The notes under the pieces are model-generated. The model worked only from the letters and a program-made list of their open reading frames with translations, searched no databases and was not told where the DNA came from. Positions 4,413 to 58,687 of a stretch of DNA of 64,000 nt are shown one piece after another. A program made the translations under genes and the position numbers. This DNA comes from Nitrosopumilus sp. GTDB lineage: Archaea; Thermoproteota; Nitrososphaeria; Nitrososphaerales; Nitrosopumilaceae. Location of the stretch: contig OZ244650.1 of NCBI GenBank assembly GCA_965218785.1, forward strand, positions 604,110 to 668,109. The letters are read 5' to 3'. Each line of letters begins with the position of its first letter. Position 1 is the stretch's first letter.

Positions 4413-5761
4413 GTGCAAAAAATGAGTGCAAAAATAATAATTGTAATCGCAATAGTCGTTTTGGCAATAGTTACCGCAGGAATAGCGTATTCAGTTGGTC
4501 TTGATCAGCCGCCCAGGATCAACAGACAGTCTCCCTTTATAGATGTGGCCGTGCCATACGATACAGACTATACAGCAATCATAGATGCTGCTGTTCACAC
4601 CACCGATACGACCATACCTGAGAGCGTGTCTCAATCAAACAACGCTTTTACCATCGACTTTTACAGGCAGGTATCAAGTGAACTTGATGCTGACTCGAAC
4701 ATATTCTTCTCACCTACAAGCATGTACATGGCATTTTCCCTCCTGTACGAGGGTGCAAAACAAAACACGGCCGAGGAGATACAGCAGGTATTCGGATTTG
4801 AGCCTGATGAAACGATGCGCCATAACGACACGGCACATGCAATATCCTCCATAAACCGTGACGATCCGCATGCCACGCTTGCCATGGCAAACGCGCTGTG
4901 GCTTGCCGACTGGTTTGAGCCGTATGACTCTTACCTTGATGTCGGGCGCCAGACATATCTTGCTGGCATTAAGACAGTCAGCTTTACTAAACCCGTAGAA
5001 GAGCCGGAGGTGTCAAGCAGATAAATGACTGGGCATCAGATAACACAAACGGCAAGATTCCAAAGGTCATTGGAAAGGAGAGTGTAGACGGCGCAACTGC
5101 CATGGCAATTACCAATGCAATTTACTTCAAGGGTACGTGGCTGACGCAGTTTGATCCCGAGAATACAAAAGAATCTGACTTTTGGACTAGCGAATCAAAA
5201 AACACCACTGCCAATTTTATGGCAAACAATGCTGTATTTCACTATACAAAGTCACATGGTGCACAGGTGCTCAAGATACCATATGATGGTGACAGGCTCT
5301 CCATGCTAGTCATTTTACCCGAGGATAGACATGGAATCGATACGCTAGAGAAATCGCTGACACAGGAGATGATAGAGGGATGGCAGCAGAACATGCACTC
5401 TACAGATGTACTAGTAGAGATGCCAAAGTTCAAGATGAGTACGCATTATGACCTTAAAAAACACCTAAAAAACCTCGGAATAAACGATGTCTTTGTTCCA
5501 GGAACATCAGATCTATCCGGTATTGCATATGTGGGTGACAGGAATCTGTATGTATCTAAAGCCAATCAGGTTGCATTTGTAGATGTAAACGAGGAGGGAA
5601 CAGAGGCCGCCGCCGTCACAACCGGCACGCTGAGTATGACAACACTCTCACACCCATCACCACCACGATTCATTGCAGACCACCCATTCATATTCATAAT
5701 ACAGGACGATGAGAGCGGTGCAATCCTGTTCATGGGACGGCTCTCTGATCCCAGTTCCTGA
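4413..5761 (+). pseudogene. Serpin with N-terminal membrane anchor, split by one frameshift near 5000-5015
   Basis: ORF1 has NAFTIDFY, NIFFSPTS, ANALW. The shifted frame continues KQINDWASDNTNGKIPK...AITNAIYFKGTW to EEGTEAAAVT and FIADHPFIFII. Confidence 0.9.
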
Positions 5762-6145
5762 TGACATATCTGGAATCTGTCAACGGGAGATATTCAATAA
5801 CGCAATAAAACGTAATAGGGAAATCATAAACCAGAAAACACTGAAAATACTAAAACCCAATTAAGATAATGCTAAAATGAATACATTAGAAATTAACTTT
5901 AGCAATTGCGGGAAGATGCAACTTTATGATGAAAACCCGTATTACAAAATAGCCACAAAATATGAAAGAAATCACAAAATAAATTCCCGCATTTTTAATC
6001 CCATTTCAAATTCATCCTGTGATTTGATCGCATCTCTGAATGCCCGATCTATCTTTAAGATTTTGAATATTGGTTTTTGGATGCTGTCTTTTTGTGACTG
6101 CTTATCTCTCAGATCTGGCATATGGGAGTTGAATTTAATTGTGAA

Positions 6146-6269
6146 TCCCGCGGGGCGGAGTTGAACCACCGACAACCCGGTTTCTGTATGCCTGATATGC
6201 TGCTATTTGATCAGCCATCTAAAGCCAACAACTACAGCCGGAAGCTCTACCAGGCTGAGCTACCACGGG
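6146..6269 (-). tRNA. trnY: tRNA-Tyr(GUA) with ~50-nt intron at position 37/38 (6182-6231)
   Basis: Acceptor stem CCCGTGG/CCGCGGG-A with C1:G72; D arm AGCTCAGCCTGGTAGAGC; anticodon GTA at 6235-6233; T loop TTCAACT; CTGT/ACAG helix flanked by 3-nt bulges (BHB-like). Confidence 0.93.
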
Positions 6270-14396: not shown

Positions 14397-15692
14397 GTGA
14401 GATTAGAAAAAGTTTTTGGAGTAATTAATGATGATCTATCAACATATGTATCAAGGCAAGAAATAGATGACTGCTTTAAGAAAGCGTTTGAGCAAAAAAG
14501 GCAACTTGTAGTATATGGCTCATCTAAACAAGGAAAGACCACACTTCTAAATGCCCATATAGCGCAGGAAAATAAAATTACAGTTCAATGTTCTCCAACA
14601 ATAACTTTACACGATATTTATAAAACCATTCTTAAAAAATTACAGATTACAATTCAATCTAGTAGTTCAATTGAAAATGAAGACAGTACCAAAACTAAGT
14701 TTAATTTTAAAGTAAAAATTCCCATGTTAGCTGAAGCGGGAATAGAAGTTGAAAAATCATCAGGTGAACGAGAAACAAATTCCGAATTATAGATGGATAT
14801 TGACAGTGCACAAGATGTGGCAGAAATACTGAAAAAATATTTTCCTGAAAAAATCGTCATACTTGAAAATTTTCATTATTTAGAAGAGAAGGAACAAAAA
14901 TTATTTGCTTTTGATTTAAGAACATTTCAAGATATTGATGTGCGAGTAATAATTTTAGGAATTTGGAGAGAAAGAAACAGATTAACTCAGTATAATGGAG
15001 ATTTACAAGACAGAATAATTGAATTACCTGTAGAACCTTGGACGGGAGAGCATTTACAAGAAATAATCAAGTTGGGTGAAAAATCTCTCAATATAGATAT
15101 GAGTGACATTAGGAATGATCTGATTAAAGAATCATTTGGTAATGTTGGAATGTTACAAGAATTATGTAAAGAATGTTGTTATGATGCACACATAATTGAA
15201 ACTGAAGATCTAAGGAAATTAACAAATGATAATTTACAAAATGCTATTGCTAAAATTACTAATTCGTATGCAAGTAGATTCCACAGAGCACTTGAAACAT
15301 TTGCAGATGCTAAACCAAGACAATCTCCAGATGGAAGTCAAGGGTTAGGAATGCCATATTTTTTTGTACGTGTTGTTCTTTCAAATTCCGATGCACGACA
15401 AATTAAAAATGGATTATCTGTGTACGATTTGAGAAAAGCAATTAAAAAAATCCATCCAAATCACGATAATAGAAGATTTGATAGTGCTCTTACTATTTTT
15501 CTCAATAGAATAAACATATATCAAAAAAATCACGGCATTACTCCCTCAATTTTTGACTATGATACCAATTTACGACAATTAAATATTGTTGATCCTAATT
15601 TCTTCTTTTTTGTTAGACATTATAATCATGATGAATTTTTAGAGGGTTTAAAACTACCACTTGGATATGCAAAAAAAACTCCAAGTTCATAA
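14397..15692 (+). CDS. AT-rich orphan P-loop ATPase
   Basis: Walker A GSSKQGKTT, Walker B-like IVILENFH; visibly more AT-rich than its neighbours. Confidence 0.75.
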
Positions 15693-15696
15693 ATCT

Positions 15697-16479
15697 CAGA
15701 ATTTTCAGGAATTTCAGGAATTTCAGGAATTTCAGGAATTTGAGGAATTTCAGGAATTTCAGGAATTTCAGGAATTTGAGGAATTTCAGGAATTTCAGGA
15801 AGGTTTGAGGAATTTGAGGAATTTCAGGAATTTGAGGAATTTCAGGAATTTCAGGAATTTCAGGAATTTCAGGAATTTCAGGAATTTCAGGAATTTCAGG
15901 AATTTCAGGAATTTGAGGAATTTCAGGAATTTCAGGAATTTCAGGAGGAATTTCAGGAATTTGAGGAATTTCAGAAATTTCAGGAATTTCAGGAATTTCA
16001 GGAATTTCAGGAATTTCAGGAATTTCAGGAATTTCAGGAATTTCAGGAATTTCAGGAATTTCAGGAAGCTTTGAGGAATTTCAGGAATTTCAGGAAGGAA
16101 TTTCAGGAATTTCAGGAATTTCAGGAATTTCAGGAATTTGAGGAATTTCAGGAATTTGAGGAATTTCAGGAATTTCAGGAATTTCAGGAATTTCAGGAAT
16201 TTCAGGAATTTCAGGGAGCTTTGAATTTCAGGAATTTCAGGAAGGTTTGAGGAATTTCAGGAATTTCAGGAATTTCAGGAATTTGAGGAATTTCAGGAAA
16301 GTTTCAGGAATTTCAGGAATTTGAGGAATTTCAGGAATTTGAGGAATTTGAGGAATTTGAGGAATTTGAGGAATTTGAGGAATTTCAGGAATTTCAGGAG
16401 AAAGTTTCAGGAATTTCAGGAATTTGAGGAATTTCAGGAATTTGAGGAATTTGAGGAATTTGAGGAATTTGAGGAATTT
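15697..16479. repeat. Tandem array of ~85 9-bp units, GGAATTT(C/G)A, with a few variant interruptions
   Basis: Directly visible in the sequence. Confidence 0.97.
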
Positions 16480-26133: not shown

Positions 26134-26769
26134 GTGTTGAAACTAGTGGGGATACTGCAGATCAAATCATATGAAAAAATCAAGGAATTTCTGCAAAAAG
26201 AGCACGTTGGAAGAATCTCTAGTATTGATGGGGATGGATTTCCTCAGATAATTCCGATGAATTTTGTTCTTTTAGATGATTTTATCTACATGCACTCTCA
26301 CATCAAGGGTGAAAAACTGGATAATATTTCTAAAAACAACAAGGTCGGCTTTGAAGCGGACAGGGAACTAGAGTTCCTGCCATCCTATTTTGAGGATCCA
26401 CAAGATGCATCCCTGGCAGATACCCTGTACATCAGTGTTGTAGTCAAGGGTCTGGGTTCTCTTGTTGATGACAGGGAGGAAAAAACGCTTGCGCTAAACG
26501 GATTGATGGAAAAATATCAGCCTGAGGGGCAGTATGAGCCGATCAGAGCAGACATGCAGGTCCTGGATCATGTTGCGGTAATCAAGATAGTCCCGCAGAT
26601 ACTGCATGGAAAATACAAGATTGGTCAGAATGTAAATCCTGAAAAAAGAATGGTTCTGGCACAAAAAATTCTAAAAAGAAATTCCCCCACTGCCGGACAA
26701 ACCCTGAAAGTTATGGGCTTTGAGGTTTCTGATGACGGACTCAAGATGGTTGATGAGCCCGTATGGTAG
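26134..26769 (+). CDS. Pyridoxamine 5'-phosphate oxidase-like flavin-binding protein (NimA-like)
   Basis: GRISSID, PQIIPMNF, HSHIKGEKLDNI, YISVVVKG. Confidence 0.85.
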   Translation: MLKLVGILQIKSYEKIKEFLQKEHVGRISSIDGDGFPQIIPMNFVLLDDFIYMHSHIKGEKLDNISKNNKVGFEADRELEFLPSYFEDPQDASLADTLYISVVVKGLGSLVDDREEKTLALNGLMEKYQPEGQYEPIRADMQVLDHVAVIKIVPQILHGKYKIGQNVNPEKRMVLAQKILKRNSPTAGQTLKVMGFEVSDDGLKMVDEPVW

Positions 26770-27015
26770 ACTGATAACAAGTCGACTGTTGTCTAAAGTA
26801 TTTTCTGTCATATTTGGCATCTGGGTGCAATGCATGATTGTGATTGCAAGTTTACACCTCTTTATTTACAGTAAATCTTTGTATGGATGCGTTTTTTGTT
26901 CTCTGCGATTAGTTTGAGAATATTTCATAAATCTTGATTTCTGAGTTTGATACAGATTTGCATAGTATCATTAGATCGGATTGATCATAATTGCCCTTTG
27001 TTGAATCTGACGTTT

Positions 27016-27056
27016 TGGTGCATTTTGGTAATCAGATCGCTAGAATCCACCAGAAC
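27016..27056. repeat. 41-bp direct repeat, copy 1 (imperfect palindrome)
   Basis: TGGTGCATTTTGGTAATCAGATCGCTAGAATCCACCAGAAC; 40/41 identical to 27597-27637. Confidence 0.95.
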
Positions 27057-27088
27057 CACCCAAAATTACTTTGTAAGGCTAAAAAGAA

Positions 27089-27319
27089 TTATTTATCTTC
27101 ATTACATTTGCTGTAAATTACCTTAAAAAATGGAAATGGCAGTTTCATAACATTAAGATATTTGGTAATTTGATCTTCTCTTAATTTATTCTTCTTTGCA
27201 ATGACAACCCTGCTCATCTGTGGATGTTGGAAGAACAAAAAACCTGATGATAAAGTAGGTACCTGAGTGTAACCAAGTGTGACTAAAACTTTTTTAAAAT
27301 GATGCCAATTAAACTTCAA
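27089..27319 (-). CDS. HicA-like toxin
   Basis: Size and pattern FKKVLVTLGY...GFLFFQHP...VVI; downstream of and overlapping a HicB-like ORF. Confidence 0.55.
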   Translation of the reverse strand: MKFNWHHFKKVLVTLGYTQVPTLSSGFLFFQHPQMSRVVIAKKNKLREDQITKYLNVMKLPFPFFKVIYSKCNEDK

Positions 27320-27527
27320 TGAAGTTGGTCTCTATCATTTTGTTATCTGGAGTAAAAAACTCCATTTTGGTTTCTGGAAATGCTTCCACATACCCTTTGA
27401 CAATCTCTTTGAAATTTGATTTTATCTCTGTCTTGTTTTTACCAACTACAATTATTTCCGGATTATCCAAACATTGAGCTAGCATACCCTCCTTGGTCTT
27501 TGTTAACTTTACCTGTAATATTGTCAT
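27309..27527 (-). CDS. Short HicB-like antitoxin
   Basis: VKLTKTKEGMLAQCLDNPEIIVVGKNKTEIKSNFKEIVKGYV fits the HicB N-terminal partial RNase H fold pattern. Confidence 0.6.
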   Translation of the reverse strand: MTILQVKLTKTKEGMLAQCLDNPEIIVVGKNKTEIKSNFKEIVKGYVEAFPETKMEFFTPDNKMIETNFIEV

Positions 27528-27596
27528 GATAATTAATATTAAAATTATTATATATATGTATTATCAATCAAAGGTTGAGTTTTTGATTAATCCTTC

Positions 27597-27637
27597 TGGT
27601 GCATTTTGGTGATCAGATCGCTAGAATCCACCAGAAC
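27597..27637. repeat. 41-bp direct repeat, copy 2 (imperfect palindrome)
   Basis: TGGTGCATTTTGGTGATCAGATCGCTAGAATCCACCAGAAC. Confidence 0.95.
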
Positions 27638-27667
27638 TAAATCTGAGATCATCTGATATCTGATTGC

Positions 27668-27675
27668 TTTAAATT
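27668..27675 (+). promoter_or_regulatory. Putative TATA box for uvrBAC (leaderless)
   Basis: TTTAAATT centred about 27 bp upstream of the uvrB TTG start. Confidence 0.4.
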
Positions 27676-27697
27676 CAGTTTTCAGGGACTGTATCCA

Positions 27698-29650
27698 TTG
27701 AAACGTTCATCCAGCTTTGAGCTAGTGTCTGATTATATTCCCACCGGGGACCAGCCACAGGCAATTGACACACTAGTCGCCGGCGTGAAAAGAAAGACCG
27801 TGCAAACACTGATTGGAGTTACAGGAAGTGGCAAGACTTTTTCAGTTGCAAATGTTATTGCCAGAACAGGAAAAAACACCCTGGTAATATCCCACAACAA
27901 GACCCTTGCAGCCCAGCTTTATTCGGAATTAAAGCAGTTTTTCCCAAAAAACAACGTTGGTTATTTTGTATCATACTATGATTACTATCAGCCTGAAAGT
28001 TACCTCCCACAAACTGATACATACATTGAAAAAGACACCCAGATCAACGAGAAAATTGAAAAATTAAGACTAGAGGCAACTGCCATGCTGCTTTCAGGAG
28101 AGCCTACAATAATCGTATCCACCGTATCCTGTATCTACTCACTTGGAAATCCACGGGACTGGAATGACATGGCAATTACAATTGGCACCGGTGATGAAAT
28201 TAAGCGAGATAATATAATTAGAAAGCTCGTTGATGCCAGATATGAAAGAAACGACACTGAAATCATACCGGGACGCTTCAAAGTGAAAGGCGATACAATC
28301 AGTGTCATTCCTGCGTATTCTGAGGATATAGTTAAAATCTCAATGTTTGGAGATGAGGTTGAAAAAATCACCCTGCTTGATCCCGTCTCATCAAAAGAAA
28401 AACAAAAAATTCCACAAATCAGAATTTATCCTGCCAAACACTATCTTATTGCAAAGGACGTTCGAAAAAAGGCAGTCAAATCAATCAAAGCGGAATTAAA
28501 AAACCATTTACCACAACTAAATGAATTGGAAAATCAGCGACTTGAGATGCGGACAAACTATGATTTGGAAATGATTGAAGAGCTGGGTTACTGTTCTGGA
28601 ATCGAAAACTACTCCAGACACTTTGATGGAAGAAGACCCGGAGAAAAGGCATTCTGCCTGATGGATTTTTTCGGTGATGACTATCTCCTAGTCATCGACG
28701 AATCCCACGTGACATTGCCACAGCTTCACGGAATGTACAAGGGGGATCATTCCAGAAAAAAAGAGCTTGTAACATACGGATTCAGACTGCCAAGTGCATA
28801 TGACAACCGTCCATTAAAATTCGAGGAATTTGAAAAATACATTCAAAATACGATATTTGTATCTGCCACTCCCGCAGAATATGAGAAAAAAACATCCTCA
28901 AAAATCGCCGAGCAACTAGTCAGACCTACGGGCCTGCTTGATCCCATCATCGAGGTTAGATCAACTAAAAACCAGCTCGATGATCTAATCCTGGAGATCA
29001 ACAAAAGGGCAGAAAACTCTGAGCGCGTTCTAGTCACCACCCTTACTAAAAGAATGGCAGAGGATTTGGCTGAATATCTCTCAAAAAAACAAGTCAGGGT
29101 CCGGTACATGCACTCAGAGATAGAGGGATTGCAAAGGACCGAGATAATCCGGCAGCTGCGCCTAGGCGAGTTTGACGTGCTAGTTGGCATCAACCTTCTT
29201 CGTGAAGGATTGGATATTCCAGAGGTCTCCTTAGTGGCAATTTTAGATGCAGACAAGGAGGGGTTTTTACGAAATTTTACCAGCCTTATCCAGACATGCG
29301 GCCGCGCTTCAAGAAATAAAAACGGATCTGTAATAATGTATGCTGATACCACGACACAGTCCATGAAAAACACCATGGATGAGACCAGACGCCGTAGGAA
29401 AAAACAAATCTGCTGGAATCAGGAGCATGATATCACTCCCAGAACCATCATAAAATCCGTCCCAGAACAGGTTACAGCACTAGATGATTCAAAGCTGAAA
29501 TCTGTCCATGATCTCAATACTGATATCATTGATTTGGAGGCACAGATGACAACATATTCTATTGATTTGGATTTTGAGCGGGCAATAGAATGTCGGGATA
29601 GAATAAAAAGACTGAACAAGGAGATTGCATTCAAAGTTGGCAGAAAATAA
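27698..29650 (+). CDS. uvrB: Excinuclease ABC subunit B
   Basis: [25 protein letters not shown] beta-hairpin, [14 protein letters not shown]. Confidence 0.97.
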
Positions 29651-38520: not shown

Positions 38521-41500
38521 ATGACGATTCTACCTATTGGCCTGCTTGCAATACTTTTTGCATTCTCTGCAGGACTGGTACTATCTGATGCGAATGCCCA
38601 GACTGCTGTCCTGTCTGAAATAGACTCATTTGCCCTTCCAGATAACGGATACCGGCACAACCTGATACATCTTAGCGACGAATTTTACGTCTCCTCACAC
38701 ACTGCAATTCATACTTCTGCAACAGATGAGAATGCTTTATCATCTGTAGTCTACCTCAGACTATACACCATAATTAATGGGGAGATCAATCTGATTCGCG
38801 ACCTTGCAGTAACACCCACTGGAGGTGGTTCCGAGTCCACAGTCCGTTCAGAAACAGAGAACCCAAATTCTACTGGTCTTGCACGCGTAGATGTTGATAG
38901 ACTTGCATTGTCATATACCTCTAGTGGAACAAATATTATTCGAACATATAATGTTACAATTTCTAGTCCTAATCCTGACTTTGTACGGGATAAGCAACGT
39001 GTCTTTCAATCCGTAGGAGATGCAAATAATCACTCTCTGGTAGCACTTGATAAAGAAACGTTGGTACTTTCATATTCGCTGCCTGATGGTAGTCCTGACG
39101 GCTATGTTCAACTTTTCTCTATTCCTCATTCGGGTATTACACTGGATCTTGAGAACACTCTCCGGTATACCGACATACAGGGACGGTATCCATCCTTGGT
39201 AAAACTGGATGATGATAGGGTGGTACTTGCATACAGAACTGTGAGAGCCCAGGTATATATTCAGACCGTTGATATTGTGACCAATGATATGGCCAATGAT
39301 ACACTTAATGCTCGCCTTGCTTTTACGACTATTGATTCCGATGAAAGAACGGCGTACAACTCTCTTATCCGGGTGGATGATAACACCGTGGCCTTGGCAT
39401 ACTCTAGGATTGGTATGAGTACGAACCTGGGCGACGGGGATGGCAGGATCCGCGTCTTTGATGTTGCTGACACAACTGGTGCCATTAGTTCAACTGGTAG
39501 TGGTGCTGTATTTTATGATGACGCTGAAACGGCAGGATCCGAGGAACGCATACACCTCAGCTCGCTGGCACTGCTGGACTCTGATACAATTGCAGTCGCA
39601 TACAGGGGTGAAGGTGGAGCCGGCTTTATCCGATTATATGATATAGCCAGTAATGGTGCTTTGACTGCCAATGGTGAACCATTAGAACACGACTCGGCAA
39701 ACGGTGCGTTCAACTCACTTATCGCGATAGATGATACCACACTGGCACTCGTGTATGGAGGGGATCTTGCTAGGACTGATTTGTCAACGTCCTCTGAAGT
39801 TCCCAACACCATCAAGCTATTTAGTACGGTTTCAGATGTGATGCCGCCAACCATACTTTCTGCCGAGACCACTGATAGTAACACAATCGTGCTTACGGCA
39901 TCAGAACTCCTTGAAGGAATGGCGAATATCGGAGACTTTACCGTTTCTAGCAGTACTCTTTCGGGTCATACTGTTTTTCCCAATACTGTTACTGCTGCTG
40001 AAATATCTGGCAGTACCATAATCCTGACTACAGGCACGGTAATTTCCGGCGGTACTATTACGATTGCAGTGGAATACCGTGGTAACTCCATAACTGATGG
40101 TGTAGGAAACGCACTTGCGAGATTTACCGATCAGTCCGTGAGCAACCGCGAGGTCGGCGTACCAATCATAACTAGCGTATCGGCAACACCTGGTACCTAC
40201 AAAATAGGTGATACCATCGACATCACCGTAACGCTTAACACGTCAGTATTTGTATCAAATTCAAACGGACGACTGGAACTGAATTTTGGCACTATTACTA
40301 GAGAGGTACCCATTTCCTCAAGTGTTACTAATAGTAATACTATTACCTTGCCATTCCCGTATACGGTTGCTACAGGAGATACTTCTGCTAATCTAAATTA
40401 TGTCGATACAAACTCGTTTCTAGGTTCTTCCGGTCACTTTACTGGTCCGGAAGGCCTTCTAAATCTGGCACTTCCTCCAACCACTTCAGCTGATTCGCTT
40501 GGCGGCTCTAATATAATAGTGACTGGTATTGCACCAATCATATCCACTGCTGTAACCACTGGTAGCACCACAATCGTACTTACGGCATCAGAGGCCCTTA
40601 CAGGAACTATTGCTACCGGAGACTTTACCGTTGATGGCAATACCGTTATGGGTATACCTATACTATCTGATGGCACTACCATAACCATAACTGTGGACAC
40701 GGCAATTATCGGCGGCAATACAGTTACTGTGGATTACGGCGGTACCGCACTAGTTAATGCCGCAGGAAACGCACTTGCAACATTTGACGATCGCCCCGTG
40801 ACAAACAACGAGGCACCAATACCTGTCATAACTGACGTATCGGCAACAGGCGGTCCATACACCGCAGGTAATACCGTCCCCATTACCGTAACATACGACC
40901 TGGCAGTAAGAGTAGTTGGAAACCCAGAACTGTTGCTGGCTACTGGCGACCCTGTTGCTGGCACCCCTAATACACCGGCAGTCTATCATTCCAGTCCTAC
41001 TCCAACTACACTGCTATTCAATTATATGGTTGCTGCAACAGATAATTCTGCTGATCTAAATTATGTCGGTACAGACTCGCTTACACTAAGCGGCAGCGAC
41101 AGCATCCTGTCCACCGCTGATAGCGCAGTTGCCAGTCTGACGCTTCCTGACCCCTCTGTTAACTCCTTTGGGGGATCTAACATAGTAGTGGATAATGTGG
41201 CTCCTTTTCCATCTATAAATCGCGCTGTTCCTACCAATCCCACACTCCCGTTTGATATAGAATACGCTGTCCTGTTTTCAGAGCCTGTAACAGGTCTTAT
41301 GGCATCTGAAATTATGGTAACTGGAACAGCATCCGGTGGTTCCCCTGTAGTATCAGACTTTGTAGGAACCCCCCCTACCGACAGGTACACCTTTAATGTG
41401 GAAATCACCGCTGATGGTACAGTCGAAGTAACGATTCCTGCAGGTGTGGCAATGGATCGGGTAAACATCGGCAATACAGCATTATTAACATCAGTCATCG

Positions 41501-44500
41501 ATACAATTGATACTACGGCACCTTTCTACCGTTCTGCTGTAACCACTGATGCAAACACGATTACAATTACAGTATCAGAACCCCTTGACGAAAGTGTTGA
41601 TGCTGTTGCCTCAGACTTTAGCGTTACATCCAACGGCATTGCCAACGGCCTTACCGCCCTACCTGAAATAAATGACAATATCATAACCCTAAGGGTAGGC
41701 ACGCCAATTCTCGGCGGTCATGCGATTACAGTGCAATATTCTGGTATGAATCTAATTGATGCAGCAGGTAACGCACTTGAGATCTTTACAAGGAATCCGA
41801 CAAACACCTTGGATGTTCCAACAACTCCTGCCGTAACTGGGGTAACTGGACTAGGCGGTTTTTACTTTTCGGGTTTCTCCATTGACATCGAGGTAACATT
41901 TGACGAGGCAGTAACCGTATCTACAGAATCTGGAATCCCGCGAATAATCCTGGATACTGGTGTTACTGGTGGTACAGCAGTCAACTATGTCAGAACCGAG
42001 AGTGGTGGAACTGTCTTGGTATTCGACTATTCAACTGCCCCCGGACACAATTCTGAGAAACTCAACTATGTCAACACGGGCTCCCTCATACTAAACGGCG
42101 GAAGCATAAATGCCGCTGATGATGCTAATCCTGCCGATCTGACACTTCCTGCAGTTGCTTCTACAGCATCACTTGGCAACTCTAACATAGTGGTGGATAC
42201 TGTAATACCCAGTGTAACCATATCCTCTGATAACCTCCTCACAAAATCTCGCAGCATCACATTTACTGCCGAGTTTACAGAGGACGTGACAGGCTTTGTT
42301 GATACTACAAATGATATCGTGGTATCTGGTGCGGCAACAACTGTCACAACAATAACTCCCGTTAACGGCACCCATTACGACTTTGTTGTGGATGCCACCG
42401 CTGATGGCGCAGTCACCGTATCCATCCCCGCAGATGCGGCAATGGATAGGGCAGATAACGGCAATACGGTATCTGACCCATACACCATCACAGTCGATAC
42501 TGTAGCACCCACCGTGACTATATCTACTGATACCGCTAATGGCGGCTCGCAAAACACCAACACAATATCATACAATGTCGACTTTAGCGAGGGAGTCCAC
42601 GACTTTGTCGAAGGTGATATTACCGTAACTGGAACGGCGCCCTTTGGTACACCCGCAATAAGAAACTTTAATGAAGTCGGTCCAGAAGAGTATACGTTTG
42701 ACGTGGTAACCACCGATAATGGTACAGTCCTGGTAACGATTCCCGCAGGTGTGGCAACAGATGATGCGACCAACGGCAACGAGGCATCTGCCACATATAC
42801 TGTCACAGTTGATGATGACATACCCACTGTCACCATAAGCGCTACTGACAGTGCTGGCACTGCTACCGCTAATGGCGGCTCGCAAAACGACAACACAATA
42901 TCATACACTGCCACCTTTAGCAAGCCTGTAACAGGCTTTGAAATAGATGATATCACGATATCTGGATCAGCACCACTTGGTACGCCTGCAGTAACAAACT
43001 TTGATATAACAAACGCACCCGAGTATACGTTTGACGTGGTAACCACCAATGATGGCACAGTCCTTGTATCCATCGCGGAAAATGTGGCAGCAGATACGGC
43101 AGGCAACGGCAACGCGGCATCTGGCGTATATACCGTTACAGTTGATAATGTCGTACCCACCGTGATGCTGGGTTCTACTACTACTGCAGTTGATGGCGGC
43201 TCGCAAAACACCAGCATAGCATCCTACACTGTCATGTTTAGCGAGGATGTCGAGAACTTTGTCGAAGGTGATATCACAGTAACTGGAACGGCATCAGGTG
43301 GTTCCCCTGGAGTATCAAGCTTTGCAGGAATCGGTGCCTCATACACCTTTAACGTGGAGACCAGCGCTGATGGTACAGTCGAAGTAACGATTCCCGCAGG
43401 TGTGGCAGCAGATGCGGCAGGCAACCTCAACACGGAATCCCTCATGCACACTATTACAGTTGATACTACCGTGCCAACTGTGGGGATAACCACTGATACT
43501 GCTAATGGCGGCTCGCAAAACACCAACACAATATCATACACTGCCACCTTTAGCGAGGCAGTCAACAACTTTGTCGTAGATGATATCACAGTAACTGGAA
43601 CGGCATCCGGCGGTTCGCCTACAGCAACAATCTTTGACGGAAGCGGTGCCTCATATACCTTTAACGTGGTAACCAGCGCTGATGGTACAGTCGAGGTAAT
43701 GATTCCCGCAAATGTGGCAACAGATACGGCAAACAACGACAACATGGAATCTGGCACATACACCGTCACAGTTGATACCCTCGCGCCTACCATCATGTCT
43801 GTGGAAACCACTGATAGTACCACGATCGTAATTACCGCATTAGAACCCCTTGCAGAAATTACTCCTACGGGAGTCTTTACCGTTACTGACAACACCGTTA
43901 ATGGCATTCCTACAATATCTGGCAGTACCATAACCATAATCGTTGGCACATCAATAGTGTTTGGAGACACACCTGAAGTAACATATGTTGGCACTGACCT
44001 AACTGATGTCGCCGGAAACGCACTTGAGGCGATTACCGACCGGACTGTAACAAACAACGTGCCAGTCGCTGGCGCGCCAGTTGTAACCGGCGTAGCGGCA
44101 CCGCCCGGTTCATACAAAGAGGGTGATACCATTAATATCACCGTAACATTTAACGAGGCAGTAACCGTATCTACAACATCTGGAACCCCGCAACTGACGC
44201 TGGAGACTGGTGATCCTGATGCGGTAGCTGTCTATACCCTCACCGGCTCTACTGGAACTGCCCTGATATTCGAGTATACGGTTGCTGCAGGAGAGAATTC
44301 TGCTGATCTCAACTATGTGAGTATAAACTCGCTTGACCTAAACGGCGGAACCATAGTTGCTGTAGCTCCCGGCGCTACTCCCGCATCCACGACACTTCCT
44401 GCTATTACCGCCGTTGAGTCACTTGGCGGCAGCTCTGCTGTAATTGTGGATACTATGGCGCCAACTGTAGTCATAACTAACATTCAAACCACTAATATCG

Positions 44501-47500
44501 GCGGCTTTTCCTCCTCCCGCGTCCTTACCTTCATTGCCACCTTTAGCGAGGAAGTCAACAACTTTGTCGTAGGTGATATCACGGTAGGTGGAACGGCTAC
44601 TGTCACAGCAGCAGCTAGCGTTATGCAACAACCTTTCGGAGACCGCTCCATATACACCATTGCTGTGACTGCCCCCGCTGATGGTACAGTCGTTGTATCA
44701 ATTCCCCTAAATGCTGCAGCAGATGATGCAGGCAACGGCAACATGGCATCTGACCCATACACCATCACAGTCGATACTGCAGCACCCACCGTAACCATAA
44801 CCGCAGATGATGTAAATGCTAACGGTTTCACAAACTCTGCTGCCATTACCTATAATGCCAAATTTAACGAGGTCGTGTCAGATTTTGATAACGCAAATGA
44901 TATTACACTAGGTGGTACGGCAACTGCAACTGTCTCAGCACCAACGGCCATTAACGGCACCGACTATACCTTTGTTGTGACTAGCACCGCTGATGCTACC
45001 TCCGCCAATGATGGCACCGTCGTCGTATCCATACCTGTAAATGCGGTATCAGATGCGGCAGGAAACAACAACGCGGCATCTGCCCCATATACTGTCACAA
45101 TCGATACCGTGGTATCCGGCGTGCAAATAACTACTATTACTGATAATGACGGAACACAAAACAGCAACACGATATCATACTCTGCAGTCTTTGGCGAGGC
45201 TGTGACAGGCTTTGATCTGGCAGATATTGACGTATCTGGAACGGCATCCAATAATGCACCTGTAGCATCAAGCTTTTCAGGAAGCGGGCTTTCCTACGCC
45301 TTTGACGTGGTGGTAGCCTCAGGCGATGGCACCGTCATAGTAAGGATTCCAGCAAATGTGGCAGTTGATAGGGCAGGCAACGGTCACACGGCATCTAACA
45401 CATACACAGTCACAGTCGATACTGCCCTACCCACCGTAGAGATAACCGCTGACGGTGTCGCTAATGGCGGCTCGCAAACCACCGACACTGTATCCTATAC
45501 AGCCACCTTTAACGAGGAAGTTGTGAACTTTGTAGTAGCTGATATTGAAGTATCTGGAACGGCATCCTTTGGTACACCTGCAGTAACAGACTTTGATGCA
45601 ACAAACGCGCCCGTGTATACGTTTGACGTGATGACCACCGATGACGGTACAGTCGTCGTATCAATCCCCGAAGGTGCGGCAACAGATGCAGGAACCAACG
45701 GCAACGTGGCATCCGGCGATCACACAGTCACAGTTGATACCAGCATACCCAGCGTAACTGGCGTAGCTGCAACAGGCGGCTCATACATGGCAAGCGACCG
45801 CATTGACATCATCGTAACATTTGACGAGCAAGTAGAGGTAACTGGCGAGCCAACTTTAACTCTGGATACCGGCGCAGTGGTAAGCTTTAATGCTTTCGTT
45901 GACACCAGCCGTCTCACCTTGCAATTTCCATATACCGTTACCGCAGGACAAAATTCTGACGATCTCAACTATGTGGATGTAGACTCACTTGACCTAAGCG
46001 GCGGAAGCATCACAGCATTTGATAACGGCATTCCTGCTAGCCTGTTACTTCCCGCAACCACCCTTGATGACTCACTTGGCGGCTCTGATGTAATAGTGGA
46101 CACTACCGCACCAAGATTCCTGTCTGCTCAGACCACCACTCCAAACACGATTGAAATTATCATATCAGAACCCCTTGATCAAACTATGACTGCAGGAACC
46201 TTTACCGTTGCCACCAATACCGTTTCTGGCACTCCTGTGATATCTGGCAGTACCATAACCATAACTGTTGGCATGGCAATAACGTCCGCAGACACGCTCA
46301 CAGTATCATACACAACTGACACCGGTGGTATAGCTGACATTGCCGGAAACGCACTTGAAACATTTGCTAATCCAGAGACCGTGACAAACAACGTGCCAGA
46401 CGCTACTGCACCAACTGTACTTAGCGTATCGGCACCGCCCGGTACCCACACCACCGGTGCCACAATTGACATCACCGTAGCATTTGATGAGGCAGTGGAT
46501 GTGACTGGCGTCCCGCAACTGACGCTGGATACTGGTGCTGTAGTTGACTATACCTCAGGCACGGGTGGAACTGACCTGCTATTCCAGTATACCGTTGCCG
46601 CAGGAGAGAATTCTGCTGATCTCAACTATGCCAATGTAAACTCACTTGCACTAAACAGCGGAACCATTAATGTCGCTGGTGGCACTACTGCTGTAAATCT
46701 GGTGCTTCCTGCAACCACCGCTGCAACATCACTTGGCGGCAGCTCTGCTGTAATTGTGGATACTACGGCACCAACTGTAACCATATCTAACGATCAAACC
46801 ACTAGTGACGGTGAGACTGCCACCACCCGCACCCTCGACTACACTGTCGAGTTTTCAGAGACTGTGACAGGCTTTGCCATGAATGATATCACAGTATCTG
46901 GGGCGGCAACCGCACCTGATGCTGCACCGGCCGGATCCGATGACACGTACACCTTTACTGTGACTGCCCCAGCCGACGGTACAGTCACCGTATCCATCCC
47001 CGCAGGCGCGGCAGCAGATGAGGCAGGCAACGACAACATTGTATCTGCCGATTATACAGTCATAATTGATGCCACCGCGCCAACCATCATGTCTGCTGCA
47101 ACCAGTGGTAGTACCACGATCGTAATTACCGCATCAGAACCACTTGCAGAAATTACTCCTACGGGAGACTTTACCGTTACTGACAACACCGTTAATGGCA
47201 TTCCTACAATATCTGGCAGTACCATAACCATAATCGTTGGCACATCAATAGTGTTTGGAGACACACCTGAAGTAACATATGTTGGCACTGACCTAACTGA
47301 TGTCGCCGGAAACGCACTTGCAGCGATTACCTCCCAGACTGTAACAAACAACGTGCCAGTCGCTGGCGTGCCAGTTGTAACCGGCGTAGCGGCACCGCCC
47401 GGTACACACAATGCGGGTGATACCATTGATATCACCGTAACATTTAACGAGGCAGTGGATGTGACTGGCACCCCGCAACTGACGCTGGAGACTGGTGATA

Positions 47501-50500
47501 CTGATGCGGTAGCTGACTATACCTCCACCGGCTCGACTGGAACTGCCCTGATATTCGAGTATACGGTTGCTGCAGGAGAGAATTCTGCTGATCTCAACTA
47601 TGTCGGTACAACCTCGCTTGACCTAAACGGCGGAACCATACTTGCTGAAGCTGACAGCGTTACTCCCGCATCCCTGACACTTCCTGCAACTACTGATGCC
47701 ACATCACTTGGCGGCAGCTCTGCAGTAGTTGTGGATGCTGTGGTACCAACTGTAACCATATCTGCCAGTGTCGATAATGACGGCAGCACAAACGACGGCT
47801 CTGTATTTTATACTGCCACCTTTAGCGAGGATGTAACCGGCTTTGATGTCGCAGCTGATATTACAGTATCTGGTACTGCAGCTGCAACCCTCACTACACC
47901 AACCGGTTCTGGCAGCACGTACACCTTTGCTGCAACTACCACTAATGGCGGAACAATCACAGTGTTGATTCCTGCAGATGCGGCAGCTGATACTGCCACC
48001 AACGGCAACACGGCATCTGCCACATACACCGTTACAGTAAACAGTTTATCCCAAATAAACTCACTTGACCTTACACCAGGCGGCTATAGGCACAACCTGG
48101 TACATTTCACCGGTGATTACTATGTCTCATCCCACACTGTAACTAGAGCCAATAGCGATGATGCGGCTCTCTGGAATTTTGACACTGTTCTTAACCTGTA
48201 CAGTATCATTGGCGGGGACATTACGTTGATTGGCAGTCGGACGGTTGAAACCCGAACTCAGGATAAAACCACGACGATTAACGAATTTACAACCCACCCA
48301 AGATCCACCGCTGTTACAGCTGTGGATGATGATACCATCGCAGTTACATATGTGGCCAGCAGTACCAGTCGTCTCAGAACATATGATGTTGATACCGCAT
48401 CTACCACTGCACCGTTTGGCACTTCTGTACTTACCTCCCTAGGAACTTCCGGTACTCTCACGCAGGAGCAGACGCACAACCACTCCCTGGTAACACTTGA
48501 TGCGACCAGGCTGGTAGTGGCATATTCGTATCCTGATGCCTCCACTACCAACTATATCCAGATTATCAATGTTGTTTCCGGTACCGGCGCTTTGACACCT
48601 GAAACTCCTGTGGAAATCACCGACACACTGGGACAGTACTCATCCCTGGTAAGACTCGATGGTAATACCGTGGTAGTTGCATACAGGGCTGATGCTAACG
48701 AATATGGATACCTGCGGGCATATAATATTTCAGCCGATAACACCATTGCTCCCGGAGATGCTGTTCAGATCGAGGGTTCCAGAATCGCGCACACCTCCCT
48801 TATCCGGGTGGATGATGATACGGTAGCTGTTGCATACTCTGCGCTTGGTCTTGATACATCCACGACTGACGGACAGGCAAACCTCAAGGTCTATAATGTT
48901 GACACAAATGCCGCCATTACCGGAGGTACCGGGGTTGCCAGTTCTGTATATTATGATGATGCCGTGGCAGATGTCACATTTGAAGAACATGCACATCTCA
49001 ACTCGCTGGCACTGCTAAATACTGATACGCTGGCAGTTGCATACAGGGGCGATGGCCCCGCAGGCAATGTTCGATTATACGACATAGACCTCTCAACAAA
49101 CGGCCTGACTGCCCGTGGCGAAGCATTCGTACATGACACGGTAAACGGTGCATTCAACTCGCTTGTCAGCATAAATGATGAAACACTGGCACTTGTATAC
49201 GGAGGGGATCTTCCATCTGTAATAGCAAACACTGACACTCCAAACACCATCAAGACACTTGCGGTTTTAGGTCCTGATACGACTGTACCAACCATCGTAG
49301 CTGCTGTAACTAGTGATGCGAATACGATCGTACTTACTGCATCCGAATTCCTTGCAAGAACTGCGGCTACCCCGGTCTTTACCGTACCTGGCAATGCAGT
49401 TACTGGTACTGTAATACTTGGAACTACCGTAACCATAACTGTGGATACCCAGATATCGCTCGGGGACACACCCACGATAAATTACGCAGTTGGTGGTGCC
49501 ATAACTGATGCTGCAGGAAACGCACTTGCGGCATTTGCTGCCCTGCCTGTGACAAACAACGTAGATGATGCCACCCGCCCAACTGCAATCATAACTAACG
49601 CTGATATCGCTGATGGCGACACCACACTTACTGACACCACCGCATCCTACACTGTCACCTTCAACGAGCCTGTGCCAGGCTTTGATGTGGCAGATATCAT
49701 AATATCCGGAACGGCATCAGGTGGTGCACCGGTACCATCAAACTTTGAAACTGCTACGGCAGACATCTCATACACCTTTGATGTGGTGACTACATCTGAT
49801 GGTACGGTAATAGTATCCGTACCTGAAAATGTGGCAGCAGATCCTGCAGGTAACCAAAACACGGCATCTAACACATATACCATCACAGTTGATGCGGAAG
49901 TACCTGAGATAGTATCTGCAAGGCTCTCCACTGATACAATCACCATAATCTACAGCAAACTAGTAACTACGGATGCCTCCCATTATGATGACGTAATGTC
50001 ACCTGCTGGCACGCCCCATACAATAGATTCGTTTATTGATGCCACTCCCGATGATGCCAATTACACTGTCATATCACTCATCCTCTCAACTACCCCAGCC
50101 GGAACCACTGCCACAATCGACATAGCTGGTCCAACAAAGACATCAGACTCTACATCGGCGCTCTCACCACTAGAAGACTATCCGGTAACAGCAGAAGTCA
50201 ACGTCGTACTTGACGCTACTGATAACCGCATCGCAGTAACTGATTTTGATTCCACCCTTGCCACAGTCAGATATCCAAGTACAGTCGATGCCACGCTGGA
50301 TTATTCATCACTGATAGACGGCGAATCAGTGACTCCAACTGCTACGACAAACACCGAGATTGTAGTAACTGCGACAGGTATACGTGGAGGGGACATACAG
50401 GTGACAATCCCTGCCACCACCACCTTTAGCTCTTCTACCTTTGATGGAATACTGATTCTGCCAACTGACTCTGGATCCGGCTGTGATTCCACTGCAATAA

Positions 50501-58300: not shown

Positions 58301-58410
58301 TTTTTATTCAGATATGATTATTTTAGAACGGTACAATCTGTCTGAATGTTGAGAAATATCAAAATAAAATAAAGTAACATAAGTTTTGATCGTCACCATA
58401 TAATGAAAAA

Positions 58411-58686
58411 TCAGTCATATTTACTCAATCTATGTACTATTACATTGCATCCGTATAGAGAACCGAAAATTGCAGACATGCAAAGTCCAAATGTAACATA
58501 TGGTGTAAATGTCGGACCTATCATCCCTTGCATATCAGTAAAACTTGGACCAAAAAAAGATTCTTTGAATAATAATACTCCTGCCATAATAATAAACAAA
58601 TGATCAACAACTGATGCTCTGTCTTTTGGTGTTAAATCTTTTAGATGTTCTATTATTTTTTCTATGGATTTTAGTGAGAATTTCAA
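58411..58686 (-). CDS. Small 2-TM hypothetical protein
   Basis: Two hydrophobic segments; starts 1 bp after the upstream stop. Confidence 0.55.
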   Translation of the reverse strand: MKFSLKSIEKIIEHLKDLTPKDRASVVDHLFIIMAGVLLFKESFFGPSFTDMQGMIGPTFTPYVTFGLCMSAIFGSLYGCNVIVHRLSKYD

Positions 58687-58687
58687 T

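What the first reader, a model, noticed from the sequence alone, without database searches (positions are those of the whole stretch)
27012..27637. Minimal hicBA cassette bracketed by two 41-bp hairpin-forming direct repeats at the uvrBAC promoter
Seen: copies at 27016-27056 and 27597-27637 (one mismatch) enclose only the hicB/hicA-like pair. Each copy folds almost completely: TTCTGGTG-C-ATTTTGG-TGAT-CAG-ATCG-CTAGAAT-C-CACCAGAA. Most departures from perfect palindromy are G-T wobbles on the + strand (they would be A-C mismatches on the - strand), which suggests selection for a strand-specific ssDNA or RNA fold rather than a simple operator. No recombinase or transposase lies nearby. Copy 2 sits ~60 bp upstream of uvrB. 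Inference: a recombinase-in-trans cassette system that uses folded single-stranded sites (analogous to attC or HUH/REP sites but with a different consensus), possibly coupling cassette movement or expression to DNA damage. Alternatively, insertion duplicated a regulatory hairpin.
Basis: partly seen in the sequence, partly recalled or inferred. Interest (0 to 1): 0.8.

Follow-up and report, generated by a model that had tools for sequence, protein, structure and literature searches.

The report
IS6-type mini-transposon pair carrying hicBA
The two hairpin repeats are copies of a tiny, many-copy mobile element that consists only of the two end sequences of an IS6-type insertion sequence, and together they appear to have carried a small toxin-antitoxin-like gene pair into a spacer upstream of uvrB: an ordinary kind of mobile DNA in an unusually small form, not a new recombination system or a DNA-damage switch.

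Summary
Two direct 44-nt copies (27013-27056 and 27594-27637, 2 mismatches) fold well on the + strand only. They enclose just two small minus-strand ORFs, whose predicted folds match HicB and HicA, and copy 2 ends 60 bp before uvrB.

The repeat is not specific to uvrB. In three public runs that hold this genome, 52-85 contigs per run match only the 44-mer and have unrelated flanks. Depth there is about 15-90 times that of the flanking genome. None of 80 related Nitrosopumilaceae uvrB loci has the repeat, and about half of those with both flanking genes have only a 40-58 bp PNPOx-uvrB spacer.

The consensus unit is 47 nt: two 23-bp inverted ends separated by one base. Its tip, GGTTCTG, is identical to the ends of full-length IS6-family elements from Nitrosopumilus relatives and matches the IS257 end at 11 of the first 12 bases.

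The whole copy1-cargo-copy2 block is flanked by GAATCTGA and AAATCTGA, an 8-bp target duplication (7/8; chance about 0.001). This is the direct-repeat layout of IS26-like pseudo-compound transposons.

The hairpin is best explained as a by-product of back-to-back ends. I found no support for an attC/HUH-like single-strand site or for coupling to DNA damage. The cognate transposase was not found.

The parts
27011..27057 (+). Copy 1 of the 47-nt element (44-nt core 27013-27056): two 23-bp inverted ends around one base. The outer (left) tip is degenerate (CGTTTTG instead of GGTTCTG). The inner tip, CAGAACC, is intact.
   Evidence: consensus tips from loose ends
27592..27638 (+). Copy 2 of the 47-nt element (44-nt core 27594-27637), in direct orientation to copy 1. 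Its tips are CC.. and ..CT instead of GG.. and ..CC.
27003..27010 (.). Left 8-bp flank GAATCTGA of the composite, the putative target-site duplication.
   Evidence: sequence; 7/8 identity to 27639-27646; empirical chance 0.0012
27639..27646 (.). Right 8-bp flank AAATCTGA of the composite, the putative target-site duplication.
27309..27527 (-). HicB-like antitoxin gene (72 aa; N-terminal HicB fold only, no DNA-binding domain).
   Evidence: no HMM hit
27089..27319 (-). HicA-like toxin ORF (76 aa), overlapping hicB by 11 nt. It has Ser where the L089 homologue has the His of 'TSHGY'. It was not called as a gene in the public contig and may be inactive.
27528..27591 (-). A/T-rich upstream region of hicB (TATATATA block). 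It belongs to the cargo, because homology to the L082/L083 cassette runs up to 27592.
   Evidence: inferred promoter
26770..27002 (.). Older spacer DNA of unknown origin between the PNPOx stop and the composite. It has no homologue in any fetched locus. With 27647-27697 it would give a pre-insertion spacer of about 290 bp.
27653..27697 (+). Conserved uvrB promoter region (GATATC..TTGCTTTAAATTCAGTTTT; TATA-like TTTAAAT at 27668-27674). Homology to relatives resumes here.
27698..29650 (+). uvrB (the first gene of uvrB-uvrA-uvrC), the right-hand neighbour.
26134..26769 (+). Pyridoxamine-5'-phosphate-oxidase-like gene, the left-hand neighbour. It is syntenic with uvrB in 72 of 80 relatives.

Best explanation
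The repeat is a member of a lineage-specific family of minimal MITEs with tens of copies. The consensus unit is 47 nt: GGTTCTGGTGCATTTTGGTGATC-A-GATCGCTAGAATCCACCAGAACC. It consists of nothing but a left and a right IS6-family-type terminal inverted repeat. It has no coding capacity, so an IS6-family DDE transposase (PF13610) encoded elsewhere in the genome must move it in trans.

The unit copy1-hicA/hicB-copy2 has the architecture of an IS26-like pseudo-compound transposon. A DNA circle carrying one copy of the element plus the hicBA-like pair would have integrated by copy-in (replicative) cointegrate formation into a spacer of about 290 bp upstream of the uvrB promoter. That reaction duplicates the element, giving two direct copies, and duplicates 8 bp of target.

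Shown here:
- the repeat is multi-copy with unrelated flanks;
- its tips match IS6 ends;
- the two copies are in direct orientation;
- the outer flanks are 7/8 identical over 8 bp;
- relatives lack the repeat at uvrB;
- the cargo occurs in other genomic contexts.

Inferred:
- the transposase and its action in trans;
- the circular intermediate;
- the order of events.

The hairpin is a geometric by-product of back-to-back inverted ends. The outer tips are now mutated, so the composite is probably immobile. I see no sign of any effect on uvrB.
For: 1. Multi-copy family. 52-85 contigs per run match only 27594-27637. At least 19 distinct left flanks and 19 distinct right flanks are seen in one run. 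Depth at the repeat core is 4908, 836 and 13100, against 157-320, 5-10 and about 140 in the flanks. A third copy, with 4 mismatches, lies in a strain-variable segment (L091).

2. Lineage-specific and an insertion. None of the 80 relatives' loci (about 1 Mb in total) has a match within 12 mismatches. About half of the 72 relatives with both genes have a PNPOx-uvrB spacer of 40-58 bp, and homology to the window resumes at 27653.

3. IS6-type ends.
- In all three variant classes of flank, the loose-end consensus shows GG before the core and C after it.
- The two 23-bp halves are 19/23 identical as inverted repeats.
- The tip GGTTCTG equals the tips of full-length IS6 elements in relatives: L089 has 26-bp perfect inverted ends, and L098-L101 have a perfect 8-bp duplication, TAATTTCA.
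- The first 12 bases match the IS257 end GGTTCTGTTGCAAAGTT at 11 positions (PMC4856351).
- The IS6 family is defined by GG tips, conserved short ends, 8-bp duplications and direct-repeat pseudo-compound transposons. MITEs and archaeal members are known (PMC7986276).

4. Target duplication. In the register set by the GG/CC tips, the outer flanks are GAATCTGA and AAATCTGA. The empirical chance of at least 7/8 is 0.0012. The flanks of each copy taken singly do not match each other.

5. IS6 transposases are abundant in the clade: 1128 homologues at E<1e-20, some named IS6-family transposase of Nitrosopumilus.

6. The cargo travels with IS6-type ends.
- The 92%-identical cassette (L082/L083) has, at exactly the same junction, a 261-nt element. 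That element shares the first 23 nt, and its other end is GGCTCTGATGCAAG when read inward. A 13-nt tip remnant lies on the far side.
- In L089 a full IS6 element ends 70 nt upstream of the hicB homologue.
Against: - No IS6 transposase, and no full-length element with matching ends, was found for this organism. None lies in the 64-kb window. I could not search the rest of the genome.
- The internal IS6 motifs are only partly kept (CTGGT versus cTGTt, GCAT versus caaa).
- The actual tips of both window copies are degenerate.
- The solo copy in L091 and the 261-nt copies in L082 have no 8-bp duplication of their own.
- The left flank of the window composite (GAATCTGA|CG) resembles the left flank of the L082 element (AATCATGA|GG). 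The 8-mer could therefore reflect a target preference, or belong to a larger block moved by other means.
- It is unclear how two ends 47 bp apart could be brought together by one transposase complex. The spread of solo copies therefore remains unexplained.
- The copy number comes from assembler word depth in metagenomes that also hold related strains, so it is approximate.
Confidence: 0.62

Rival explanations
1. The repeat is a dispersed palindromic element of unknown mobiliser (REP-like, or some other MITE family), and two members landed independently on either side of a hicBA pair that was already there. On this reading the bracketing, and the resemblance of the tips to IS6 ends, are coincidences.
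For: The family is multi-copy with sharp 44-47-nt boundaries. Solo copies exist (L091). Abutting copies without cargo exist in the runs (joints 27057->27594). The cognate transposase was not found.
Against: Neither copy has its own flanking duplication, whereas the outer flanks of the pair match 7/8. The element-cargo junction on the hicA side is the same in the window and in L082/L083, so the element and the cargo share history. The tip GGTTCTG is identical to IS6 elements in relatives. As far as I recall, REP-associated transposases (RAYTs) are bacterial.
Confidence: 0.15
2. The whole block, including its 8-bp flanks, was moved here as part of a larger segment. This could have been by homologous or illegitimate recombination, or by another mobile element. 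On this reading the flank similarity is inherited, not made at this site.
For: The left flank 8-mer resembles the one next to the homologous element in L082, and L082 also has AATCATTT just beyond the cassette's other end. A 6-bp CTGATA occurs at 26771-26776 and again at 27653-27658, bracketing the entire 876-bp difference from relatives. The PNPOx-uvrB spacer receives unrelated cargo in many relatives.
Against: Beyond about 10 nt, the flanks of the window block and the L082 block show no significant similarity. A 6-mer repeat is weak evidence. This rival still treats the repeat as an IS6-type MITE and disputes only the last step.
Confidence: 0.12
3. One reading: the hairpins are folded single-strand recombination sites (attC-like or HUH/REP-like) used by a recombinase acting in trans, forming a new cassette system.
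For: The + strand folds strongly and the - strand does not. The two copies are direct and enclose a promoter-bearing small cassette. The family is multi-copy. Two variant substitutions in L091 keep pairing on the + strand (T.G to T-A and G-C to G.T).
Against: The strand asymmetry rests on 3 wobble pairs (p=0.25). Copy 1 has an uncompensated G-C to A.C change and a weaker fold. No compensatory double changes were seen. The 8-bp flanking duplication and the GG-tipped inverted ends are hallmarks of a DDE transposase, not of tyrosine-recombinase or HUH sites, which leave no such duplication. No integrase or HUH gene was found in the parts of the window I annotated.
Confidence: 0.05
4. The hairpin is a regulatory element of uvrBAC (an operator, an RNA element or a terminator) that was duplicated when hicBA inserted.
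For: Copy 2 lies 30 bp upstream of the uvrB TATA box, and the sequence is palindromic like an operator.
Against: It is absent upstream of uvrB in all 80 relatives, whose promoter is otherwise conserved. It is present at tens of unrelated sites. There is no Rfam match.
Confidence: 0.02

Closest known systems
IS6/IS26-family pseudo-compound transposons and translocatable units (IS26, IS257/IS431, IS1216)
   Same: Cargo is bounded by two directly oriented copies. An 8-bp target duplication surrounds the whole unit. The ends are GG-tipped and begin GGTTCTG.TGCA. The unit 'one copy plus adjacent cargo' recurs in another genome.
   Different: The bounding units are 47-bp elements made only of ends, not ~800-bp insertion sequences with their own transposase. 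The host is a thaumarchaeon. The cargo is a hicBA-like pair rather than a resistance gene. The transposase is unidentified.
IS6-family MITEs (two listed in ISfinder, 227 and 336 bp, per PMC7986276)
   Same: Both IS ends are present, with no ORF, and mobilisation is presumed to be in trans. The 261-nt relative in L082/L083 falls in that size range.
   Different: The 47-nt form has only 1 nt between the two 23-bp ends and is far smaller than described MITEs. It is amplified to tens of copies.
MITE-bounded composite elements (for example, the MITE pairs that flank class 1 integrons in Acinetobacter; from memory)
   Same: Two copies of a non-autonomous element bracket and mobilise passenger genes, with a target duplication around the whole.
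   Different: A different IS family and a different duplication length, and those MITEs are several hundred bp long.
Bacterial REP elements / REPINs with RAYT transposases, and IS200/IS605-derived PATEs
   Same: Short, imperfect palindromes dispersed in intergenic DNA in many copies.
   Different: Those are recognised as single-strand hairpins by HUH enzymes, have a conserved 5' tetranucleotide and leave no target duplication. Here the tips match DDE IS6 ends and an 8-bp duplication is present.
Integron attC sites
   Same: An imperfect palindrome sits at a cassette boundary, and one strand folds better.
   Different: There is no IntI, attI or Pc platform. attC recombination leaves no 8-bp duplication. 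Copies of this element are nearly identical in sequence, whereas attC sites conserve structure rather than sequence.

Membership tests
IS6/IS26-family-derived MITE | Short terminal inverted repeats with a GG dinucleotide at the tips and family motifs (cTGTt, caaa) | tested here: met
   The consensus tips are GG...CC. GGTTCTG is identical to the IS6 elements in L089, L098 and L103. The first 12 bases match the IS257 end at 11 positions. The internal motifs are only partly kept (CTGGT, GCAT). The window's own tips are degenerate.
IS6/IS26-family-derived MITE | 8-bp direct target duplication | tested here: inconclusive
   The composite is flanked by GAATCTGA and AAATCTGA, 7/8 identical, chance 0.0012. 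The solo copy in L091 and the 261-nt copies in L082 have none. The flank also resembles the one in L082.
IS6/IS26-family-derived MITE | Both IS ends present with no transposase ORF (the definition of a MITE) | tested here: met
   The unit is 23 + 1 + 23 nt, and the halves are 19/23 identical as inverted repeats. There is no room for an ORF.
IS6/IS26-family-derived MITE | A cognate DDE transposase (PF13610) with matching ends in the same genome | not testable with these tools
   None lies in the window. Homologues are abundant in the clade, but the four elements whose ends I read have different inner end sequences.
IS26-like pseudo-compound transposon | Passenger DNA flanked by two copies in direct orientation, produced by cointegrate formation | tested here: met
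   Both copies are on the + strand, 581 bp start to start. Whether cointegrate formation produced the layout is inferred, not shown.
Integron cassette / attC | An IntI tyrosine recombinase with attI and Pc next to the array, and attC sites conserved in structure but not in sequence | tested here: not met
   No integrase was found in the parts of the window I annotated. Copies are near-identical in sequence (only one variable position above 1%). An 8-bp duplication is present.
REP/RAYT or IS200/IS605 (HUH) hairpin ends | Strand-specific hairpin recognition, no target duplication, an associated Y1 HUH transposase | tested here: not met
   The strand asymmetry is not significant (3 wobble pairs). 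An 8-bp flank duplication is present. No HUH gene was found in the annotated parts of the window. The rest of the genome was not tested.
HicAB type II toxin-antitoxin | Sequence membership in the HicA (PF07927) and HicB (UPF0150-like) families | tested here: not met
   There is no hit at E<=10 in Pfam, NCBIfam or PADLOC, and no profile hit against PDB sequences.
HicAB type II toxin-antitoxin | A HicB N-terminal fold and a HicA dsRBD-like fold, encoded as an adjacent overlapping pair | tested here: met
   The top Foldseek hits are HicB structures (probability 0.85-0.97, TM 0.53-0.64) and HicA structures (probability 0.85-0.99). The ORFs overlap by 11 nt. The HicA model is of low confidence (pLDDT 62).
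HicAB type II toxin-antitoxin | A catalytic histidine in HicA | tested here: inconclusive
   The window protein has Ser where the L089 homologue has His in 'TSHGY'. The equivalence of that position to the catalytic His rests on my reading, not on a structural alignment.

The most novel reading that the evidence does not exclude
The 47-bp ends-only elements serve as portable docking sites for an IS6 transposase acting in trans. Circles made of one element plus a small gene cassette could then be inserted next to, or exchanged between, any of the tens of copies in the genome, as in the IS26 'targeted conservative' route. This would be in effect an integron-like cassette-shuffling network for toxin-antitoxin and defence genes in ammonia-oxidising archaea. 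It would rest on the smallest functional transposon substrate described so far.
Probability: 0.15. Interest if true: 0.6.

Novelty: new variant of a known kind. Interest (0 to 1): 0.33.

Why it matters
If the reading is right, an IS6-family transposase can amplify and use a substrate that is nothing but its two 23-bp ends. Such mini-elements can then build IS26-style composite units that move small toxin-antitoxin genes around a thaumarchaeal genome. That bears on two points: how small a transposon can be, and how accessory genes spread in Nitrosopumilaceae, where mobile elements are little studied.

It also has a practical use. Perfectly folding 'orphan hairpins' in archaeal intergenic DNA should be checked against IS end sequences before they are read as RNA or recombination structures. 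For uvrBAC biology it has no evident consequence.

Tried and rejected
- Rfam and tRNA scans found nothing at the locus.
- A sigma-70 promoter and terminator scan was uninformative, as expected for an archaeon.
- Three pattern scans found no match: a degenerate hairpin pattern in viral contigs, the 25-nt core in JGI metagenomes and the 23-nt left half in JGI metagenomes. The family is therefore absent from those collections.
- I guessed that the 102-aa ORF inside the 261-nt relative is a decayed C-terminus of an IS6 transposase. It has no significant similarity and no Pfam hit, so I dropped the idea.
- I first read CTGATA (26771-26776 and 27653-27658) as the duplication of a single 876-bp insertion. 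I kept it only as a weak alternative once the 8-bp duplication at the element tips was seen.
- I looked for extended homology between the left flanks in the window and in L082. It is not significant.
- I looked for the parent IS by sampling IS6 transposase homologues. Their tips match, but the inner end sequences differ.
- A lookup for near-identical strains with an empty site, through the exact PNPOx protein, returned only the source contig.
- No RNA-only runs were available, so transcription of the hairpin could not be tested.
Full report
**1. The observation**

The repeat finder gives a 44-nt direct repeat at 27013-27056 and 27594-27637 with two mismatches. A 40-mer search with up to 3 mismatches finds only these two places in the 64-kb window, where none is expected by chance.

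As single strands, the + strand copies fold into near-complete hairpins (-18.0 and -22.6 kcal/mol; z -3.7 and -5.0). The - strand versions are no better than shuffles.

Between the copies lie only two overlapping minus-strand ORFs of 72 and 76 aa. Copy 2 ends 60 bp before the uvrB start. Rfam has no match at the locus.

**2. The two small genes**

Neither ORF matches any Pfam, NCBIfam or PADLOC model, even at E<=10. A profile built from the ten homologues finds nothing among PDB sequences.

- The 72-aa protein has nine homologues, all from Nitrosopumilus-like assemblies. An AlphaFold model built on that alignment is confident (pLDDT 89). Its best PDB matches are consistently HicB antitoxin N-terminal domains: 6u0i, 3k6q, 4p7d, 6hpb, 2dsy and 6g1c, with probability 0.85-0.97 and TM 0.53-0.64, although E-values are only 0.1-1.
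- The 76-aa ORF could be modelled only from a single sequence (pLDDT 62). Its top hits are nevertheless HicA toxins: 1whz, 6g26, 6hpb_A and 5yrz.

'hicBA-like' is therefore fair at the level of fold and gene arrangement, but not of sequence family. The window's HicA-like protein has Ser where the L089 homologue has the His of 'TSHGY'. The ORF was not called as a gene in the public contig. It may be inactive.

**3. The locus in relatives**

UvrB retrieved 80 Nitrosopumilaceae loci with 80-86% amino-acid identity. The gene order luciferase-like / orf79 / orf134 / PNPOx / uvrB is conserved.

In about half of the 72 loci with both flanking genes, the PNPOx stop and the uvrB start are only 40-58 bp apart. 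That spacer holds a conserved promoter-like block..GATATCACCATTGCTTTAAATTCAGTTTT... The window keeps this block, and its homology to the relatives resumes at 27653/27654. About 880 bp of the window's 928-bp spacer is therefore extra DNA. No relative has the 44-mer anywhere in its locus, even allowing 12 mismatches. This rules out a conserved uvrB operator or RNA element.

The spacer is also hypervariable in the other relatives:
- Spacer lengths run from 65 bp to 5.1 kb.
- Cargo includes unrelated small ORFs, a GNAT acetyltransferase, and a tyrosine-integrase element carrying DUF5343 and a HEPN domain (L079).
- Some loci have a second promoter allele, CGTTAGCTATAAGTTCAGTTT, sometimes duplicated on both sides of the cargo.

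It is a permissive insertion hotspot. Nothing ties it specifically to this repeat.

**4. The repeat is a dispersed, many-copy element**

Three public runs hold the window sequence. When their contigs are laid on the locus, 52-85 contigs per run match only 27594-27637 and then run on into unrelated sequence:
- In one run, at least 19 different left flanks start at 27594 and at least 19 different right flanks start after 27637.
- Assembler depth at the repeat core is 4908, 836 and 13100. The flanking genome is at 157-320, 5-10 and about 140.
- Only one position varies in more than 1% of the depth, so most copies are nearly identical. Copies with 3-6 differences sit inside longer contigs.
- Contigs in which two units abut without cargo also exist (joints 27057->27594).

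A third copy, with 4 mismatches, was recovered in L091. L091 is a low-coverage strain variant of window positions 57.6-60.0 kb. The copy lies there in a swapped-in 4.9-kb segment, next to an inverted rve-type transposase fragment.

Two copies in 64 kb fit a genome-wide count of some tens. High copy number, near-identity, sharp ends and restriction to one lineage all point to a recently active mobile element.

**5. What kind of element**

In all three variant classes of flank, the consensus shows GG just before the core and C just after it. The unit is therefore 47 nt: GGTTCTGGTGCATTTTGGTGATC-A-GATCGCTAGAATCCACCAGAACC. That is two 23-bp inverted repeats, 19/23 identical, separated by one base.

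The tip GGTTCTG is the tip of the full-length IS6-family elements I could read in relatives:
- L089: a 1.9-kb element with 26-bp perfect ends, GGTTCTGTAACATC...
- L098-L101: a 2.65-kb element, GGTTCTGCTAACTT.., with a perfect 8-bp duplication, TAATTTCA.
- L103 and L092: right ends ..CAGAACC.

The first 12 bases match the IS257 end GGTTCTGTTGCAAAGTT at 11 positions (PMC4856351).

The IS6 review (PMC7986276) defines the family by several features: GG tips, conserved short ends, 8-bp target duplications, and pseudo-compound transposons 'invariably' bounded by direct repeats as a result of cointegrate formation. It also notes that MITEs exist and that the family is abundant in archaea. PF13610 transposases are abundant in Nitrosopumilaceae: 1128 homologues at E<1e-20, some annotated as IS6-family transposase of Nitrosopumilus.

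**6. The composite**

With the 47-nt register fixed by the tips, the 8 bp outside copy 1 (27003-27010, GAATCTGA) and the 8 bp outside copy 2 (27639-27646, AAATCTGA) are 7/8 identical. Pairs of 8-mers at the same spacing across the window reach that level with frequency 0.0012. The flanks of each copy taken singly do not match each other.

Direct orientation together with an outer 8-bp duplication is what copy-in integration predicts for a circle carrying one element plus cargo. The pre-insertion spacer would then have been about 290 bp, which is within the range seen in relatives.

**7. The cargo travels with such ends**

HicB homologues sit in different genomic neighbourhoods in each genome examined.

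The closest one (92% identity; L082 and L083, the latter from the window's own sample) shares the whole cargo from 27058 to 27592. At exactly the same hicA-side junction it has a 261-nt element. That element begins with the same 23 nt. Its other end, read inward, is GGCTCTGATGCAAG.., which is even closer to the IS6 consensus. A second copy of the 261-nt element and a 13-nt tip remnant lie in the same orientation.

In L089 a full IS6 element ends 70 nt upstream of the hicB homologue.

**8. Why not a folded single-strand site**

- The hairpin follows automatically from two inverted ends placed back to back.
- The + strand bias rests on three transition mismatches that happen to be G-T on that strand (two-sided p = 0.25).
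- Copy 1 carries an uncompensated G-C to A.C change and folds less well. The L091 copy shows only single-sided changes. No compensatory pair change was seen.
- An 8-bp staggered-cut duplication is not produced by tyrosine recombinases or by HUH enzymes.
- No recombinase gene was found in the parts of the window I annotated. The only exception is a decayed rve fragment at 57779-58048.

**9. Caveats**

- The transposase, and a full-length parent with these exact ends, were not found. I could not search the rest of the genome.
- The window's own tips are degenerate (CG.. and ..CT on the outside).
- The solo L091 copy and the 261-nt copies lack duplications of their own. This is common for IS26-like elements after deletions, inversions or recombination, but it is still negative evidence.
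- The left flank 8-mer resembles the flank of the homologous element in L082 (AATCATGA|GG). L082 also has ..GATTAATCT|CC|AATCATTT at the far end of the cassette. That could be the footprint of a lost right-hand copy with its own 6/8 duplication. It could also be a target preference, or a sign that a larger block moved with its flanks. Beyond about 10 nt, the flanks are unrelated.
- It is not clear how a single 47-bp unit could bring its two ends together in one transposase complex. How solo copies multiplied is therefore open. The ends of two different copies, or the IS26-type targeted conservative route, are possibilities.

**10. Verdict**

The finding is real but largely ordinary. It is a hicBA-like pair bracketed by two copies of a lineage-specific, ends-only IS6-type MITE, in an IS26-like pseudo-compound arrangement, sitting in an insertion hotspot upstream of uvrB. 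The unusual points are the minimal size of the element (47 bp), its amplification in a thaumarchaeon and its apparent ability to bound a composite. There is no evidence for a new recombination chemistry or for any link to DNA damage.

Noticed in passing
L002-L081, between the PNPOx homologue and uvrB (about positions 5700-6000 in most loci): The PNPOx-uvrB spacer is a hypervariable insertion hotspot across Nitrosopumilaceae. About half of the loci have 40-58 bp, about 28 have 160-370 bp with unrelated small ORFs, and seven have 0.8-5.1 kb. There are two promoter alleles (..CCATTGCTTTAAATTCAGTTTT and ..CGTTAGCTATAAGTTCAGTTTT). In L017, L019, L025, L072 and L079 a promoter copy lies on both sides of the cargo.
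   Followed up: partly
L079:832-5983: A 5.1-kb insertion at the same site carries a tyrosine integrase (PF00589), DUF5343, a Swt1-like HEPN protein and a possible replication protein. It looks like an integrated element that uses the uvrB-promoter region as its attachment site.
   Followed up: partly
window 57612-60005, compared with L091:4746-9627: There is a strain-level structural variant in the same sample. 2.4 kb of the window is replaced by 4.9 kb carrying an ATPase_2/AAA_16 gene, a TPR protein and a MazE-like pair. An rve-type transposase fragment (window 57779-58048) is inverted between the two versions, and a third copy of the 44-mer lies at L091:5031-5074.
   Followed up: partly
L082:9870-13120 and L083: This is a nested mobile-element 'junkyard'. 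It holds two 261-nt relatives of the repeat, an IS66-like remnant bounded by GTAACACCCTA..CCTAATGCA direct repeats that carries a second HicB/HicA-like pair, and outer direct repeats of the form ..ATTCTGAATAAAAT..TAAATT...
   Followed up: partly
L098-L101:22-2673: An IS6-family element of 2.65 kb, with a perfect 8-bp duplication (TAATTTCA), appears to carry an N6 DNA methyltransferase gene as a passenger inside its inverted ends.
   Followed up: no
window 26953/27567, runs X3 and X1: A minor contig (depth about 30-36, against about 150) joins 26953 directly to 27567. It therefore lacks copy 1 and both small genes but keeps the 27 nt before copy 2. The rest of that contig does not match the window at 80% or more, so it may come from a related strain. 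The breakpoints fit no model I considered.
   Followed up: partly
window 27057->27594 (joints in runs X1-X3): Some contigs have two repeat units directly abutting with no cargo. These are tandem or adjacent copies somewhere in the community.
   Followed up: no
window 4413-5761 and 14397-16074: A serpin gene is split into two ORFs (4413-5024 and 5102-5761). An AAA/STAND-like ATPase seems broken into 2-3 ORFs. These are possible pseudogenes and would fit a genome under decay.
   Followed up: no
window 38521-51456: A single ORF of 4311 aa on the + strand (a giant protein). I did not examine it.
   Followed up: no
window 6146-6269 (-): Rfam finds a tRNA spanning 124 nt (probably intron-containing) that ARAGORN misses.
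   Followed up: no
window 26262-26585, run X2: Run X2 contains a relative about 80% identical over the PNPOx gene, at about 5000-fold depth. The window genome is at 5-10-fold in that run. The depth of the repeat there does not scale with that abundant relative.
   Followed up: no
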